DNA from: Escherichia coli
Lineage (GTDB): Bacteria; Pseudomonadota; Gammaproteobacteria; Enterobacterales; Enterobacteriaceae
DNA: 64,000 bases
Strand: one strand, 5' to 3'
Assembly (NCBI RefSeq): GCF_003334785.1
Contig: NZ_QOWV01000005.1
Part shown: piece by piece, positions 46,365 through 49,850 of the stretch
How positions within the stretch are numbered: position 1 is the first letter of the stretch
Layout of the letters: each line of letters begins with the position of its first letter
Translations under genes and position numbers: made by a program
Notes under the pieces: model-generated
The model's database searches: none
What the model was told of the DNA's origin: nothing
What the model saw: only the letters and a program-made list of their open reading frames with translations

Positions 46365-46446
46365 AACCCTCTCCTTAGCTTATACAGATATCATTGAGTG
46401 ACCGGTGTTGAGAAATCCGGTGGTTTAGGGGGATAGAGCAACAATC

Positions 46447-46462
46447 GCACCACTCTTGCCAG
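46447..46462 (-). promoter_or_regulatory. candidate sigma-54 -24/-12 element (CTGGCAA-N5-GTGC) ~72 nt upstream of ygfK start
   Basis: Minus-strand reading CTGGCAAGAGTGGTGC has GG and GC at the canonical 10-nt spacing; inference only. Confidence 0.3.
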
Positions 46463-46531: not shown

Positions 46532-46685
46532 GGTGCTAAATGAGAATTAAAATCACTCCTGAAAATTATTATTGCCAGCCCATTTATCAATTTTTCTCTT
46601 TTCTCAAAATCAGTGATTCCTTATCATTATGATAATGAGTGCCGGAAGGATTAAATATTTGAACGCAATCGTTTAACTACGTTTT

Positions 46686-47264
46686 CTAAATTTCAGTATA
46701 CCTTTCCTTCGCTGTAATAAAGTCGTCCGGAGTATCAATATCTAAAATTATTTCTGCATTTTCTATTTCGACGGAATAATGATCTCCCATAAGGAGTGCC
46801 TGACGCATATTGGTGACATTGGGTCGTTGGATTGCCTGCATCAGGCATGGTTTTGACACTAAAATCGGATGGCCGGGGATGCCATTATGGAGTGGCAGTA
46901 TTGCGCCATCATTTCGTAACGACCAGATTTTTCTAAAAATATCGATGGTGAGGGTTGGCATGTCACCGTGGGTGAGAAAACAATGTTCTGTTTGCACTGC
47001 GGGTACTGCGGCCTTGACGGATGTTAGTAAACCCTGCGCATAATCTGGGTTGTGAATAATAGTGATATTGCTCTGGTTCGCATAACGTTCGTGCAGTTCA
47101 TTACCACGATAGCCGGTGACTAAAATAATTCGGCTACAAAACTGCAACGCATTTTTGATACTTGTATCAAGAATTGTTCCCTGTTCCCAGGGTAACATCA
47201 TTTTCCATTGCCCCATTCTTGATGATAATCCGGCAGCGGTAATTATACAGTCGATGGCTGACAT
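46686..47264 (-). CDS. mocA: molybdenum cofactor cytidylyltransferase (MobA-like NTP transferase), 192 aa
   Basis: Track ORF 46686..47264, MSAIDCIITAAGLSSRMGQWKMMLPWEQGTIL...; MobA-like fold signature. Confidence 0.9.
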   Translation of the reverse strand: MSAIDCIITAAGLSSRMGQWKMMLPWEQGTILDTSIKNALQFCSRIILVTGYRGNELHERYANQSNITIIHNPDYAQGLLTSVKAAVPAVQTEHCFLTHGDMPTLTIDIFRKIWSLRNDGAILPLHNGIPGHPILVSKPCLMQAIQRPNVTNMRQALLMGDHYSVEIENAEIILDIDTPDDFITAKERYTEI

Positions 47265-47366
47265 AGTGGTTCCATTATTTATAGGGGCTAATAACGCCTG
47301 ATAATTGCGTTACTTCCTGATGGATTAAGTTGGGGATAATTTATCCCAGAGAGGTCATAAAGACTC

Positions 47367-48137
47367 GTGAAAAGTATAGTTGACCCATCGGCATTAGTCA
47401 TTGATTTAGGTGCGCAGAAACGTCCCACTGTGATTTCTGTTGTTGGTGCTGGGGGGAAAACCAGCTTGCTTTTTTGGCTGGCAGAACTGCTCCAGGCTAG
47501 CGGCAGGCGTGTGTTAATCACGACGACGACACATATGTTTATGCCAACGTCTCACTGGCCCGTGGTTTTCTGTCGTGATCCCGCCATGCTTCCTCATGCG
47601 TCTCTTACATCCCCCATTTCATTTTGTTTTCACAGCTGGAAAGCGAACCAGGGAAAAGTGCAGGGATTTACGCCAGAAGCGATTGATGCACTGGTGCAAC
47701 GACCAGAGTGTGACGTAATTCTCATTGAAGCAGATGGCTCGCGTGGAATGCCGTTAAAAGCGCCTGATGAGCACGAACCTTGCATACCCAAAAGCAGTTG
47801 CTGCGTGATTGCTGTGATGGGAGGACATACTTTGGGCGCGAAAGTGAGCACAGAAAATGTCCATCGCTGGTCGCAGTTTGCTGATATTACCGGGTTAACA
47901 CCTGATGCAACCTTGCAACTGAGCGATCTCGTTGCGCTGGTTCGCCACCCTCAGGGGGCGTTTAAAAACGTACCGCAAGGTTGTCGGCGAGTCTGGTTCA
48001 TTAACCGTTTTTCTCAATGTGAGAATGCGATTGCACAAAGCGAGCTCCTTCAACCGCTGCAACAACACGACGTAGAGGCAATCTGGCTGGGCGATATACA
48101 AGAACATCCTGCAATCGCGCGCAGATTTGTGAATTAG
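47367..48137 (+). CDS. yqeC: selenium-dependent hydroxylase accessory protein YqeC, 256 aa
   Basis: Track ORF 47367..48137; P-loop-like GAGGKTS motif. Confidence 0.88.
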   Translation: MKSIVDPSALVIDLGAQKRPTVISVVGAGGKTSLLFWLAELLQASGRRVLITTTTHMFMPTSHWPVVFCRDPAMLPHASLTSPISFCFHSWKANQGKVQGFTPEAIDALVQRPECDVILIEADGSRGMPLKAPDEHEPCIPKSSCCVIAVMGGHTLGAKVSTENVHRWSQFADITGLTPDATLQLSDLVALVRHPQGAFKNVPQGCRRVWFINRFSQCENAIAQSELLQPLQQHDVEAIWLGDIQEHPAIARRFVN

Positions 48138-48184
48138 CGGCCCGGGTATTCCGGGTTACTGAAAGGATATCCATTGAGGTTGGT

Positions 48185-49810
48185 ATGAATATTTTCACAG
48201 AGGCTGCAAAACTCGAAGAGCAAAATTGTCCGTTTGCTATGGCGCAAATTGTTGATAGCCGAGGCTCGACTCCCCGCCATTCTGCACAAATGTTAGTGCG
48301 CGCCGATGGTTCTATCGTCGGTACAATTGGTGGCGGAATGGTTGAGCGGAAGGTGATTGAAGAGTCGCTTCAGGCATTGCAGGAACGTAAGCCGCGATTA
48401 TTCCATGGACGTATGGCTCGTAACGGTGCGGATGCTGTCGGGTCAGATTGTGGAGGTGCAATGTCAGTATTTATCAGCGTCCATGGTATGCGTCCACGTC
48501 TGGTGTTGATTGGCGCGGGGCATGTCAACCGGGCGATAGCCCAGAGTGCGGCGCTATTAGGATTTGATATTGCCGTTGCTGATATTTATCGCGAAAGCCT
48601 CAATCCTGAACTATTCCCACCATCAACCACGCTTCTCCATGCTGAGTCGTTTGGTGCGGCAGTGGAAGCACTGGATATTCGCCCTGATAATTTTGTCCTG
48701 ATTGCCACGAATAATCAGGATCGTGAAGCCCTCGACAAACTCATTGAACAGCCCATTGCATGGTTGGGGTTGCTGGCAAGTCGTCGCAAGGTTCAGCTTT
48801 TCCTGCGTCAATTGCGTGAGAAAGGCGTGGCTGAAGAACATATTGCCCGTTTACATGCGCCCGTTGGTTACAACATAGGTGCGGAAACGCCGCAGGAGAT
48901 CGCCATCAGCGTGCTGGCAGAAATATTACAGGTGAAAAATAACGCGCCGGGTGGGCTGATGATGAAACCTTCTCATCCTTCCGGACACCAGCTGGTGGTG
49001 ATTCGCGGTGCGGGAGATATCGCCAGTGGTGTGGCGCTACGTCTGTATCATGCGGGTTTTAAAGTGATCATGCTGGAAGTGGAAAAACCGACAGTGATTC
49101 GTTGTACCGTGGCGTTTGCCCAGGCCGTGTTCGATGGCGAAATGACGGTCGAAGGCGTCACTGCTCGCCTGGCAACCAGCTCTGCGGAAGCGATGAAACT
49201 TACCGAACGCGGATTCATTCCTGTGATGGTAGATCCCGCCTGTTCATTGCTTGATGAACTGAAACCGCTTTGCGTGGTGGACGCTATTCTGGCGAAACAG
49301 AATTTGGGAACGCGGGCAGATATGGCACCAGTAACAATCGCGCTTGGGCCGGGCTTTACTGCTGGGAAGGATTGTCATGCGGTAATTGAAACAAATCGCG
49401 GGCACTGGCTCGGTCAGGTGATTTACTCTGGTTGTGCGCAGGAGAATACCGGTGTTCCTGGCAATATTATGGGGCATACCACCCGACGGGTGATCCGTGC
49501 TCCTGCTGCAGGCATTATGCGATCCAACGTGAAATTAGGCGATCTGGTGAAAGAGGGCGATGTGATTGCCTGGATTGGTGAGCATGAAATTAAAGCACCG
49601 TTGACGGGGATGGTGCGTGGCTTGTTGAACGACGGCCTGGCAGTGGTTGGTGGTTTTAAAATTGGTGATATCGATCCTCGTGGTGAAACCGCTGATTTCA
49701 CCAGCGTTTCTGATAAAGCCCGGGCGATTGGCGGCGGCGTACTTGAGGCGTTAATGATGTTGATGCATCAGGGCGTGAAAGCGACAAAAGAAGTGCTGGA
49801 AGTGGCTTAA
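48185..49810 (+). CDS. yqeB: XdhC/CoxI-family maturation factor YqeB, 541 aa
   Basis: Track ORF 48185..49810, MNIFTEAAKLEEQNCPFAMAQIVDSRGSTPRH... Confidence 0.9.
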   Translation: MNIFTEAAKLEEQNCPFAMAQIVDSRGSTPRHSAQMLVRADGSIVGTIGGGMVERKVIEESLQALQERKPRLFHGRMARNGADAVGSDCGGAMSVFISVHGMRPRLVLIGAGHVNRAIAQSAALLGFDIAVADIYRESLNPELFPPSTTLLHAESFGAAVEALDIRPDNFVLIATNNQDREALDKLIEQPIAWLGLLASRRKVQLFLRQLREKGVAEEHIARLHAPVGYNIGAETPQEIAISVLAEILQVKNNAPGGLMMKPSHPSGHQLVVIRGAGDIASGVALRLYHAGFKVIMLEVEKPTVIRCTVAFAQAVFDGEMTVEGVTARLATSSAEAMKLTERGFIPVMVDPACSLLDELKPLCVVDAILAKQNLGTRADMAPVTIALGPGFTAGKDCHAVIETNRGHWLGQVIYSGCAQENTGVPGNIMGHTTRRVIRAPAAGIMRSNVKLGDLVKEGDVIAWIGEHEIKAPLTGMVRGLLNDGLAVVGGFKIGDIDPRGETADFTSVSDKARAIGGGVLEALMMLMHQGVKATKEVLEVA

Positions 49811-49818
49811 ATGAAAAT

Positions 49819-49844
49819 GGCCGGATGGTATTACCCACCCGGCC
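49819..49844. terminator. hairpin GGCCGGATGG-N-CCACCCGGCC between convergent yqeB and yqeA
   Basis: 9/10 bp stem with T/A runs on both flanks; probable bidirectional terminator. Confidence 0.55.
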
Positions 49845-49850
49845 TTTAAA

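What the first reader, a model, noticed from the sequence alone, without database searches (positions are those of the whole stretch)
46686..49810. mocA, yqeC and yqeB cluster: maturation signature of selenium-dependent molybdenum hydroxylases, with no selenocysteine codon seen
A YqeB (XdhC-like) and YqeC pair next to a molybdenum cofactor cytidylyltransferase is the genomic marker reported for molybdoenzymes carrying a labile, non-selenocysteine selenium cofactor. The neighbouring xdhD and ygfK ORFs are uninterrupted (no in-frame TGA), consistent with a post-translationally delivered selenium ligand. The target enzyme (XdhD, XdhA, or both) is not resolved.
Basis: partly seen in the sequence, partly recalled or inferred. 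Interest (0 to 1): 0.6.

Follow-up and report, generated by a model that had tools for sequence, protein, structure and literature searches.

The report
Known selenium molybdoenzyme maturation gene cluster
This is the Escherichia coli mocA-yqeC-yqeB gene trio, already published and annotated as the marker for molybdenum enzymes that need a loosely bound selenium atom.

Summary
mocA (46686-47264, -), yqeC (47367-48137, +) and yqeB (48185-49810, +) are intact ORFs. Each scores above the curated NCBIfam cut-off for its family (TIGR03310, TIGR03172, TIGR03309). The stretch is 100% identical to E. coli K-12 and occurs in 5176 of 5426 complete E. coli genomes. RefSeq already names the products "selenium cofactor biosynthesis protein YqeC" and [quoted passage not shown]. 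The interpretation restates Haft & Self 2008 and Zhang et al. 2008, which describe this very locus.

Later work goes further. C. difficile ΔyqeB behaves like ΔselD, and ΔyqeC shows no phenotype. In C. sporogenes both XDH and the XdhD-type urate reductase need SelD. E. coli XdhD-YgfM reduces urate to 2,8-dioxopurine. Selenium dependence in E. coli itself was not tested in any paper I could search.

My additions are modest:
- YqeB is a fusion of an XdhC-like half and the marker half, which models as a Rossmann-like domain plus a biotinyl-like barrel.
- YqeC models as a SIMIBI P-loop NTPase. About 10% of its family representatives are fused to MocA, in both domain orders.
- Neither protein has a family-wide conserved cysteine.
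- A published σ54 promoter inside yqeC drives yqeB.

Novelty: already known. Interest is low.

The parts
46686..47264 (-). mocA (formerly ygfJ), CTP:molybdopterin cytidylyltransferase, 192 aa
   Evidence: ORF. TIGR03310 scores 214.2 bits against a cut-off of 186.45. RefSeq annotation. Role in MCD synthesis is cited in PMC2997495.
47265..47366 (.). 102-nt divergent intergenic region between mocA and yqeC
   Evidence: Sequence. Only weak sigma-70-like matches, no more than in shuffled sequence.
47367..48137 (+). yqeC, 256 aa, GTG start. P-loop NTPase with Walker A G27-AGGKT-S33 (47445-47465) and an E121-A-D-G124 motif.
47768..47784 (+). Sigma-54 promoter inside yqeC (TGAGCACGAACCTTGCA), about 400 nt upstream of yqeB, which drives yqeB expression
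   Evidence: The sequence is present in the window. Bonocora et al. 2015 (PMC4591121) reported sigma-54 ChIP signal, loss of binding on mutation, a fall in yqeB mRNA, and undetectable YqeB protein in the promoter mutant.
48185..49810 (+). yqeB, 541 aa, a two-module fusion. The XdhC-like module is aa 12-247 (48218-48925). The TIGR03309 selenium-marker module is aa 271-526 (48995-49762).
49819..49844 (.). GC-rich hairpin between the convergent stop codons of yqeB and arcC (yqeA), a likely bidirectional terminator
   Evidence: Terminator scan gives 10 pairs, 8 of them G-C. Sequence.
38238..41884 (-). ygfM-xdhD: the most likely client enzyme, an MCD-type urate reductase that makes 2,8-dioxopurine
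   Evidence: XdhD matches TIGR03313 at 2122.8 bits and YgfM matches TIGR03312 at 489.7 bits. Biochemistry is in PMC12507026. The C. sporogenes enzyme that catalyses the same reaction is inactive when purified from a selD mutant.
58276..61938 (-). xdhABC: the second candidate client, xanthine dehydrogenase
   Evidence: XdhA matches NF007426 at 1486 bits. Annotation. C. sporogenes XDH also needs SelD.
46437..46453 (-). Sigma-54 promoter of the ygfK-ssnA-ygfM-xdhD operon (GTGGTGCGATTGTTGCT), in the 321-nt gap next to mocA
   Evidence: Sequence match. ChIP-seq site OS31 in PMC4591121.

Best explanation
The three genes encode the cofactor-maturation branch that serves the MCD-type xanthine-oxidase-family enzymes of E. 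coli's anaerobic purine and urate degradation regulon.

Step 1, shown elsewhere: MocA adds CMP to Mo-molybdopterin to make the molybdopterin cytosine dinucleotide cofactor (MCD).

Step 2, inferred from homology: the XdhC-like N-terminal module of YqeB holds the finished cofactor and hands it to apo-XdhD and probably apo-XdhA. E. coli has no other XdhC-type chaperone next to these enzymes.

Step 3, inferred from phylogenetic profile and from genetics in clostridia: the C-terminal TIGR03309 module of YqeB installs or gates a labile terminal selenium ligand on molybdenum. The selenium comes from SelD's selenophosphate. Neither YqeB nor YqeC has a family-wide conserved cysteine, so a protein-bound perselenide relay on these two proteins is unlikely and direct use of selenophosphate is more plausible.

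Step 4, inferred from fold and gene fusions: YqeC is a SIMIBI-class P-loop NTPase that works physically with MocA. It is most likely a nucleotide-driven adaptor or hand-over factor, in the way MobB serves MobA or MeaB serves a B12 enzyme. It would be helpful but not strictly required.

Expression is sigma-54-dependent. yqeB has its own promoter inside yqeC.
For: Family membership of all three proteins is above curated cut-offs.

Haft & Self 2008 found TIGR03309 only in selD-positive genomes and ranked yqeB, yqeC and ygfJ 1st, 2nd and 5th in E. coli by phylogenetic profiling. Zhang 2008 made the same link and also found a labile 75Se-labelled protein of about 30 kDa in E. faecalis, the size of HP1 and HP2.

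In C. difficile, ΔyqeB has the same purine-growth phenotype as selD mutants. C. sporogenes DOPDH purified from a selD mutant is inactive, and XDH is also SelD-dependent. E. coli XdhD-YgfM catalyses the same urate to 2,8-dioxopurine reaction.

YqeB is discussed as the possible shared XdhC-like chaperone for XdhABC and XdhD (PMC2997495).

The YqeC model is a SIMIBI NTPase, with invariant Walker A, EADG, K131, E137 and P138 in 145 diverse sequences. Of 144 full-length family representatives, 15 are 424-469 aa long. All 10 that I tested are MocA fusions, 5 in each domain order. Moorella thermoacetica has a YqeC-MocA fusion directly upstream of a stand-alone YqeB, beside XdhC genes, with an XdhD-like gene about 2 kb downstream. 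In C. difficile, yqeC lies upstream of mocA in the same cluster.

The YqeB C-terminal module is 53-63% identical across phyla and has no invariant cysteine.

The intragenic sigma-54 promoter is needed for YqeB protein.
Against: None of the papers I could search shows selenium in, or SelD dependence of, E. coli XdhD or XdhA. Haft & Self themselves noted that a labile-selenium enzyme had not been observed in E. coli.

Neither XdhD (300 bits) nor XdhA (376 bits) reaches the 830-bit cut-off of the NCBIfam 'selenium-dependent xanthine dehydrogenase' equivalog TIGR03311.

Active XdhD was purified from E. coli with no mention of selenium. That is uninformative either way.

ΔyqeC had no phenotype in C. 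difficile.

The adaptor role proposed for YqeC rests on fusions and fold only. MobB itself does not appear among sequence or fold matches.

The chemistry assigned to the YqeB C-terminal module is entirely inferred.
Confidence: 0.7

Rival explanations
1. In E. coli the cluster is only a generic MCD-cofactor chaperone system. YqeB acts as an XdhC-type chaperone and sulfuration platform, and XdhD and XdhA carry the ordinary Mo=S ligand. The selenium link seen in anaerobes does not operate in E. coli.
For: There is no E. coli selenium data in the searchable literature. XdhD and XdhA fall below the TIGR03311 cut-off. YqeB has a complete XdhC module. Zhang 2008 and Peng 2016 note that HP1 and HP2 homologues also occur outside the trait and may have selenium-independent roles.
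Against: E. coli YqeB carries a full, high-scoring TIGR03309 module (417 bits). That module is 53-63% identical to those of clostridia and Moorella, and the family was reported only in selD-positive genomes. The C. sporogenes enzyme with the XdhD activity is SelD-dependent. Retaining a 280-aa module at this level of conservation without using it is unlikely.
Confidence: 0.15
2. YqeC, rather than being a dispensable adaptor of MocA, takes a direct part in the selenium chemistry. For example, it could drive the exchange of the terminal ligand on YqeB-bound cofactor by NTP hydrolysis, using selenophosphate.
For: YqeC co-occurs with YqeB as the trait signature. SIMIBI NTPases include metal- and cofactor-insertion factors such as UreG, HypB, CooC and MeaB. 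In L004, yqeC and yqeB overlap in one operon. In C. difficile the double mutant was only partly complemented by yqeB alone. The labile 75Se-labelled 30-kDa protein in E. faecalis matches the size of either protein.
Against: ΔyqeC had no phenotype in C. difficile. The recurrent fusion partner is MocA, not YqeB. Some YqeB loci have no yqeC within 10 kb. Cys139 in the HEPCIP motif is invariant in proteobacteria but present in only 26 of 145 family members.
Confidence: 0.2
3. The cluster serves a selenate-reduction or detoxification system. This is the older reading, in which YgfK, YgfM and XdhD (then YgfN) are a 'selenate reductase' and YqeB and YqeC mature it.
For: RefSeq and NCBIfam still name YgfK 'putative selenate reductase subunit'. 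Haft & Self discuss this as the main alternative.
Against: XdhD-YgfM and YgfK now have demonstrated substrates, urate and 2,8-dioxopurine. Haft & Self had already argued against this reading from the phylogenetic distribution.
Confidence: 0.03

Closest known systems
Selenium-cofactor ('third selenium utilisation') trait: YqeB/HP1 (EF2563), YqeC/HP2 (EF2564) and the MocA-like protein EF2569 of Enterococcus faecalis, with counterparts in C. difficile and C. sporogenes
   Same: The same three protein families, each above its equivalog cut-off. They lie next to xanthine-oxidase-family enzymes and the urate-degradation genes (ygeW, ygeX, ygeY, hyuA, ssnA, ygfK). The E. coli locus is itself one of the founding examples.
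   Different: In E. coli, YqeB is fused to an XdhC module, selD is unlinked, and selenium dependence of the client enzymes has not been shown. In C. difficile, yqeB and yqeC are unlinked.
XdhC-family Moco chaperones (Rhodobacter capsulatus XdhC, E. coli PaoD)
   Same: The N-terminal half of YqeB has both XdhC Pfam domains and matches solved XdhC-family structures 2we7 and 3on5. The expected role is to bind the cofactor, have its terminal ligand installed, and insert it into the apo-enzyme.
   Different: YqeB carries an extra module of about 280 aa that XdhC and PaoD lack. It is not in an operon with a client enzyme. The ligand delivered is proposed to be selenium rather than sulfur.
MobA-MobB pair (Moco guanylyltransferase plus its P-loop GTPase adaptor)
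   Same: A cofactor nucleotidyltransferase is paired with, and sometimes fused to, a small SIMIBI P-loop NTPase (the NCBIfam MobA/MobB fusion model NF011056 appears). From my own knowledge, not tested here, E. coli mobB mutants make active molybdoenzymes. That parallels the silent ΔyqeC mutant of C. difficile.
G3E and SRP-type cofactor or metal chaperone NTPases (MeaB, UreG, HypB, CooC)
   Same: Same fold class. These are among the best structural matches. They use nucleotide-gated delivery of a cofactor or metal.

Membership tests
YqeB family (NCBIfam TIGR03309, selenium-dependent molybdenum cofactor biosynthesis protein) | Full-length match to the equivalog HMM above the curated cut-off | tested here: met
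   417 bits against a cut-off of 220. Residues 271-526 cover profile positions 1-256 of 256.
YqeB family (TIGR03309) | Occurs only in genomes that encode selenophosphate synthetase SelD | not tested
   selD is not in the window. Haft & Self list E. coli selD as b1764, and the window is 100% identical to K-12. I did not check the genome myself.
YqeC family (NCBIfam TIGR03172 / Pfam PF19842) | Match above the curated cut-off, with the P-loop and EADG motifs intact | tested here: met
   240.9 bits against a cut-off of 73.05. PF19842 E-value 5.5e-42. G27, G29, G30, K31, E121, D123 and G124 are invariant in 145 family members and present in the E. coli protein.
MocA/YgfJ family (NCBIfam TIGR03310, molybdenum cofactor cytidylyltransferase) | Match above the curated cut-off | tested here: met
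   214.2 bits against a cut-off of 186.45.
XdhC family of Moco chaperones | XdhC_CoxI (PF02625) plus XdhC_C Rossmann (PF13478) domains | tested here: met
   Both domains are found in YqeB residues 12-247. PDB 2we7 matches at E 3.6e-27 and 3on5 at E 7.8e-21. The score is below the TIGR02964 XdhC equivalog cut-off (110.8 vs 161.6), so YqeB belongs to the superfamily but is not an XdhC equivalog.
Selenium-dependent molybdenum hydroxylases (enzyme class), for the clients XdhD and XdhA | Labile, non-selenocysteine selenium ligand at molybdenum that is required for activity | not testable with these tools
   This needs 75Se labelling, ICP-MS or EPR, or activity assays in ΔselD. The searchable papers hold no E. 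coli data.
Selenium-dependent xanthine dehydrogenase equivalog (NCBIfam TIGR03311) | Match above the curated cut-off of 830.45 bits | tested here: not met
   XdhD scores 300.1 bits and XdhA 376.2 bits. XdhD instead meets TIGR03313 (2122.8 vs 1101.9), and XdhA meets NF007426.
Selenocysteine-containing selenoproteins | In-frame UGA decoded as selenocysteine | tested here: not met
   Zero in-frame TGA in xdhD, ygfM, ssnA, ygfK, mocA, yqeC, yqeB, xdhA, xdhB and xdhC. No long in-frame extension follows any TGA stop.
MobB family (considered for YqeC) | Detectable sequence or closest-fold relationship to MobB | tested here: not met

The most novel reading that the evidence does not exclude
The two 'selenium marker' proteins divide the work differently from what is usually assumed. 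YqeC would be the NTPase partner of the cytidylyltransferase MocA, a MobB-like hand-over factor for MCD, and not a selenium enzyme at all. All selenium chemistry would sit in the cysteine-free Rossmann-plus-barrel module of YqeB, which would use selenophosphate directly on cofactor held by an XdhC module. E. coli XdhD-YgfM would then be a selenium-dependent molybdenum hydroxylase in the best genetic model organism, with yqeB expression set by its own sigma-54 promoter.
Probability: 0.3. Interest if true: 0.45.

Novelty: already known. Interest (0 to 1): 0.12.

Why it matters
How the labile selenium ligand reaches molybdenum hydroxylases is the least understood route of biological selenium use. 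The enzymes concerned drive anaerobic urate and purine breakdown by gut bacteria, which bears on host urate levels and gout. The E. coli locus is a convenient place to solve that mechanism. However, the locus, its interpretation and the proposed experiments are all already in the literature and in the RefSeq product names, so flagging it adds nothing new. The useful remaining gap is a direct test of selenium dependence of XdhD and XdhA in E. coli, together with assignment of separate roles to YqeC and to the two halves of YqeB.

Tried and rejected
1. Cys139 of YqeC (the HEPCIP motif) is invariant in 38 proteobacterial sequences, so I considered it as a perselenide carrier. I rejected this. It is Val in Moorella and in L004 and is Cys in only 26 of 145 family representatives.

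2. I looked for a conserved cysteine in the YqeB C-terminal module. There is none among the invariant columns of 41 sequences.

3. I tested whether the YqeB C-terminal module is a duplicated XdhC Rossmann domain. hhalign aligns the first beta-alpha-beta units but with a probability of only 4.6%, so this is not supported.

4. I tested whether YqeC is a MobB family member. It is not found by PDB profile search or by either fold search. I keep the comparison only as an analogy.

5. A sigma-54 consensus scan of the window gave 48 matches against 43.8 expected, so the scan has no power on its own. The promoter assignments therefore rest on the published ChIP and mutagenesis.

6. The sigma-70 promoter scan of the locus gave no more hits than shuffled sequence.

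7. No solved structure exists by sequence search for YqeC or for the YqeB C-terminal module.

8. Literature searches for E. coli-specific selenium dependence of XdhD or XdhA found nothing.

9. P0127 was dropped from the YqeB alignment because its sequence shows systematic substitutions.
Full report
**What is there.** The window is E. coli chromosome. The 3125-nt stretch 46686-49810 is 100% identical to K-12 MG1655 and to many other strains, and it is present in 5176 of 5426 complete E. coli genomes. It holds three intact ORFs:
- mocA, 46686-47264, - strand, 192 aa
- yqeC, 47367-48137, + strand, 256 aa, GTG start
- yqeB, 48185-49810, + strand, 541 aa

Each scores above the curated NCBIfam equivalog cut-off. 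MocA scores 214 bits against 186 for TIGR03310. YqeC scores 241 against 73 for TIGR03172. YqeB scores 417 against 220 for TIGR03309. RefSeq already names the products 'molybdenum cofactor cytidylyltransferase', 'selenium cofactor biosynthesis protein YqeC' and 'selenium-dependent molybdenum cofactor biosynthesis protein YqeB'.

The neighbouring genes are those of the purine and urate degradation region. On one side lie xdhD, ygfM, ssnA and ygfK. On the other lie arcC, hyuA, ygeY, dpaL (ygeX), ygeW, ygeV and xdhABC. None of xdhD, ygfM, ssnA, ygfK, mocA, yqeC, yqeB, xdhA, xdhB or xdhC has an in-frame stop codon of any kind, and none has a long in-frame extension beyond its stop.

**How the interpretation compares with the literature.** It is the published interpretation. 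Haft & Self 2008 started from orphan selD genes. [quoted passage not shown] Their table lists the E. coli genes b2875 yqeB, b2876 yqeC and b2877 ygfJ (now mocA) as putative accessory proteins of selenium-dependent molybdenum hydroxylases, within the same 23-gene region. They also noted that such an enzyme had not yet been observed in E. coli (PMC2276186). Zhang et al. 2008 reached the same conclusion independently, with HP1 = YqeB and HP2 = YqeC. They noted fusions of HP1 and HP2 with a MobA-related protein and with XdhC. They also detected a labile, non-selenocysteine 75Se-labelled protein of about 30 kDa in E. faecalis, which is the size of HP1 and HP2 (PMC2432076). Since then, co-occurrence of SelD, YqeB and YqeC has been the standard signature of the 'Se-cofactor trait' (PMC5029168).

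**What later experiments add:**
- In C. difficile, ΔyqeB phenocopies selD mutants for growth on xanthine and urate. ΔyqeC has no phenotype, although the double mutant is only partly rescued by yqeB alone (PMC11448449).
- In C. sporogenes, both xanthine dehydrogenase and the urate-reducing 2,8-dioxopurine dehydrogenase require SelD. The latter is inactive when purified from a selD mutant (bioRxiv 10.1101/2025.04.24.650524).
- E. coli XdhD-YgfM catalyses the same reduction of urate to 2,8-dioxopurine. YgfK is the flavin/Fe-S reductase of the next step, not a molybdoenzyme. XdhABC oxidises xanthine (PMC12507026).

I found no paper that tests selenium or SelD dependence of the E. coli enzymes.

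For YgfK it is irrelevant.

MocA is the general MCD synthase needed by all MCD enzymes. YqeB has been discussed as the possible shared XdhC-type chaperone of XdhABC and XdhD (PMC2997495).

**Anatomy of YqeB.** 'XdhC-like' describes only residues 12-247. These carry the Pfam domains XdhC_CoxI and XdhC_C and match the solved XdhC-family structures 2we7 and 3on5. The selenium marker is residues 271-526. A database search with that half returned mostly stand-alone proteins of 262-304 aa, with a minority of XdhC fusions of about 485 aa. Identity is unusually high at 53-63% across phyla, for example 58% to Moorella thermoacetica. An AlphaFold model built on 41 sequences (pLDDT 92.7) shows three elements:
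- a Rossmann-like domain that begins with a glycine-rich GAGD(I/L)A(T/S)G loop
- a long C-terminal helix

No solved protein matches the whole module. The invariant residues are glycines and charged or polar residues, including D19, R47, E64, D91, D107, K112, N114, the GPGF motif, E143, R146, H148, R176, R219, D236, D238 and K252. There is no invariant cysteine. An attempt to show that the module is a second XdhC Rossmann domain gave only a 4.6% hhalign probability.

In 38 proteobacterial sequences a KAPxxHEPCIP motif with Cys139 is invariant, which suggested a selenium-carrying cysteine. That idea fails. A full-library profile search found 5738 family members. In an alignment of 145 diverse ones (median 32% identity), Cys139 is present in 26 and Val in 99. 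The true invariants are G27, G29, G30, K31, T55, E121, D123, G124, K131, E137, P138 and G197, and T53, K97, R167 and N213 are nearly invariant.

**Gene fusions and contexts.** Of 144 full-length YqeC representatives, 15 are 424-469 aa long. All ten that I scanned are fusions with a TIGR03310 MocA domain. Five are YqeC-MocA and five are MocA-YqeC, so the fusion arose more than once. In Moorella thermoacetica a 455-aa YqeC-MocA fusion sits directly upstream of a stand-alone YqeB. Two XdhC-fragment genes lie a short way upstream, and XdhD-like, YgeX-like, amidohydrolase and YgeW-like genes follow downstream. In a metagenomic contig, xdhC, yqeC and yqeB form a compact module with yqeC and yqeB overlapping. 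Other YqeB genes have no yqeC within 10 kb. In C. difficile, yqeC lies upstream of mocA in the same cluster. In E. coli the two genes are divergent neighbours 102 nt apart. Zhang et al. had already mentioned such fusions in outline.

Together with the fold and the silent ΔyqeC phenotype, these contexts suggest that YqeC serves MocA. It would act as a nucleotide-driven adaptor or hand-over factor, as MobB does for MobA or MeaB for a B12 enzyme, rather than performing the selenium chemistry. This is an analogy only, because YqeC is not detectably a MobB family member.

**Regulation.** A sigma-54 promoter within yqeC (TGAGCACGAACCTTGCA, 47768-47784) binds sigma-54 and is required for yqeB mRNA. 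When it is mutated with silent changes, YqeB protein becomes undetectable (PMC4591121; sequence confirmed). So yqeB is expressed largely independently of yqeC. C. difficile is similar, with a SigL promoter before yqeB but not before yqeC. Sigma-54 promoters also precede ygfK (46437-46453, -), ygeW (56073-56089, -) and xdhA. The local sigma-54 activator gene ygeV is at 56458-58236.

**Most likely mechanism, with shown and inferred steps marked:**
1. MocA makes MCD. This is shown elsewhere.
2. YqeC assists that step or the hand-over of MCD. This is inferred from fusions and fold.
3. The XdhC half of YqeB holds the cofactor. This is inferred from homology.
4. The TIGR03309 half installs or gates a labile selenium ligand derived from SelD's selenophosphate. 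This is inferred from the phylogenetic profile and from clostridial genetics. The lack of conserved cysteines argues against a perselenide relay on these two proteins.
5. The cofactor is inserted into XdhD-YgfM and probably XdhABC. This is inferred, and is supported by the SelD dependence of the clostridial counterparts.

The main rival is that E. coli uses the system without selenium. It is kept alive by the absence of any E. coli selenium data and by the failure of XdhD and XdhA to reach the TIGR03311 'selenium-dependent XDH' cut-off (300 and 376 bits against 830). The strong conservation of the marker module argues against it.

**Verdict.** The feature is real and was correctly interpreted, but it is already described in the literature and written into the genome annotation. 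My additions refine the picture without changing the category:
- the two-module dissection of YqeB
- the SIMIBI fold of YqeC
- the roughly 10% frequency of MocA fusions, in both domain orders
- the absence of family-wide cysteines in either protein

Noticed in passing
window 49811-49850; compare L001 23126-23345: The gap between the convergent yqeB and arcC stop codons is 40 nt in the window, with one copy of the hairpin GGCCGGATGGTATTACCCACCCGGCC. In K-12 MG1655 and in the other top full-identity hits the gap is 220 nt: two direct copies of that 26-mer flank a 180-nt REP/BIME-like insert. So the window is K-12-like but lacks the insert. The insert-less form is common in E. coli, and strain EC23HZZ201 (CP168035.1) matches this 96-nt junction at 100% identity without the insert. 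The duplicated terminator hairpin at both ends of the insert looks like a target duplication.
   Followed up: partly
window 46540-46549 (-), 47716-47725 (+), 56286-56295 (+): The exact 10-mer TAATTCTCAT occurs three times in the 64-kb window. The copies lie 87, 43 and about 197 nt upstream of the sigma-54 promoters of ygfK, yqeB and ygeW respectively. The xdhA upstream region shares the adjacent CTCATATTGATA with the ygeW copy. This could be a binding site for the sigma-54 activator YgeV. However, counting matches with up to one mismatch gives no excess over shuffled sequence (4 vs 3.2), and the yqeC copy encodes the conserved V-I-L-I just before the EADG motif (Walker B region), so that copy may be coincidental.
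   Followed up: partly
window 47665-47678 (+) versus about 61994-62010 (-): A 14-mer inside yqeC, GATTTACGCCAGAA, is the reverse complement of the -24 region of the published xdhA sigma-54 promoter (CTGGCGTAAATCTTGCC). Read on the antisense strand, the yqeC copy has a GG-to-GC spacing one base too long for a sigma-54 promoter, and it is not among the published ChIP sites shown. It is probably chance.
   Followed up: no
window 41105-41108 and 43264-43265: The genes of the ygfK-ssnA-ygfM-xdhD operon are tightly packed. The xdhD start codon overlaps the ygfM stop codon by 4 nt, and ssnA starts 2 nt after the ygfK stop. This suggests translational coupling of the FAD and Mo/Fe-S subunits.
   Followed up: no
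protein P0127 (Logan assembly, 282 aa; homologue of YqeB aa 260-541): This database protein is 77% identical to the E. coli YqeB C-terminal module. It differs by systematic P to F or S, T to I, A to V and H to Y replacements, the pattern expected from pervasive C-to-T changes in the underlying reads or assembly. I excluded it from the alignment used for modelling.
   Followed up: no
protein P0121 (ENA, 422 aa): This predicted protein is 100% identical to the YqeB C-terminal module over the whole query, but it is 422 aa long and is annotated with a TetR_N domain (PF00440) instead of XdhC domains. It may be a chimeric assembly, an engineered construct or a rearranged yqeB.
   Followed up: no
E. 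coli genome collection, matches to window 46686-49810: About 250 of 5426 complete E. coli genomes lack the mocA-yqeC-yqeB stretch. One record carries it on a replicon labelled as a plasmid. I did not determine which lineages lost it, or whether they also lost xdhD and ygfK.
   Followed up: no
L005 10001-11892 (metagenomic contig ERZ27247220 k141_620697): A stand-alone YqeB homologue overlaps a downstream radical-SAM gene. No molybdoenzyme, yqeC, mocA or xdhC gene lies within the stretch held (10 kb upstream, about 8 kb downstream to the contig end). This hints that some members of the YqeB family work in a different context.
   Followed up: no
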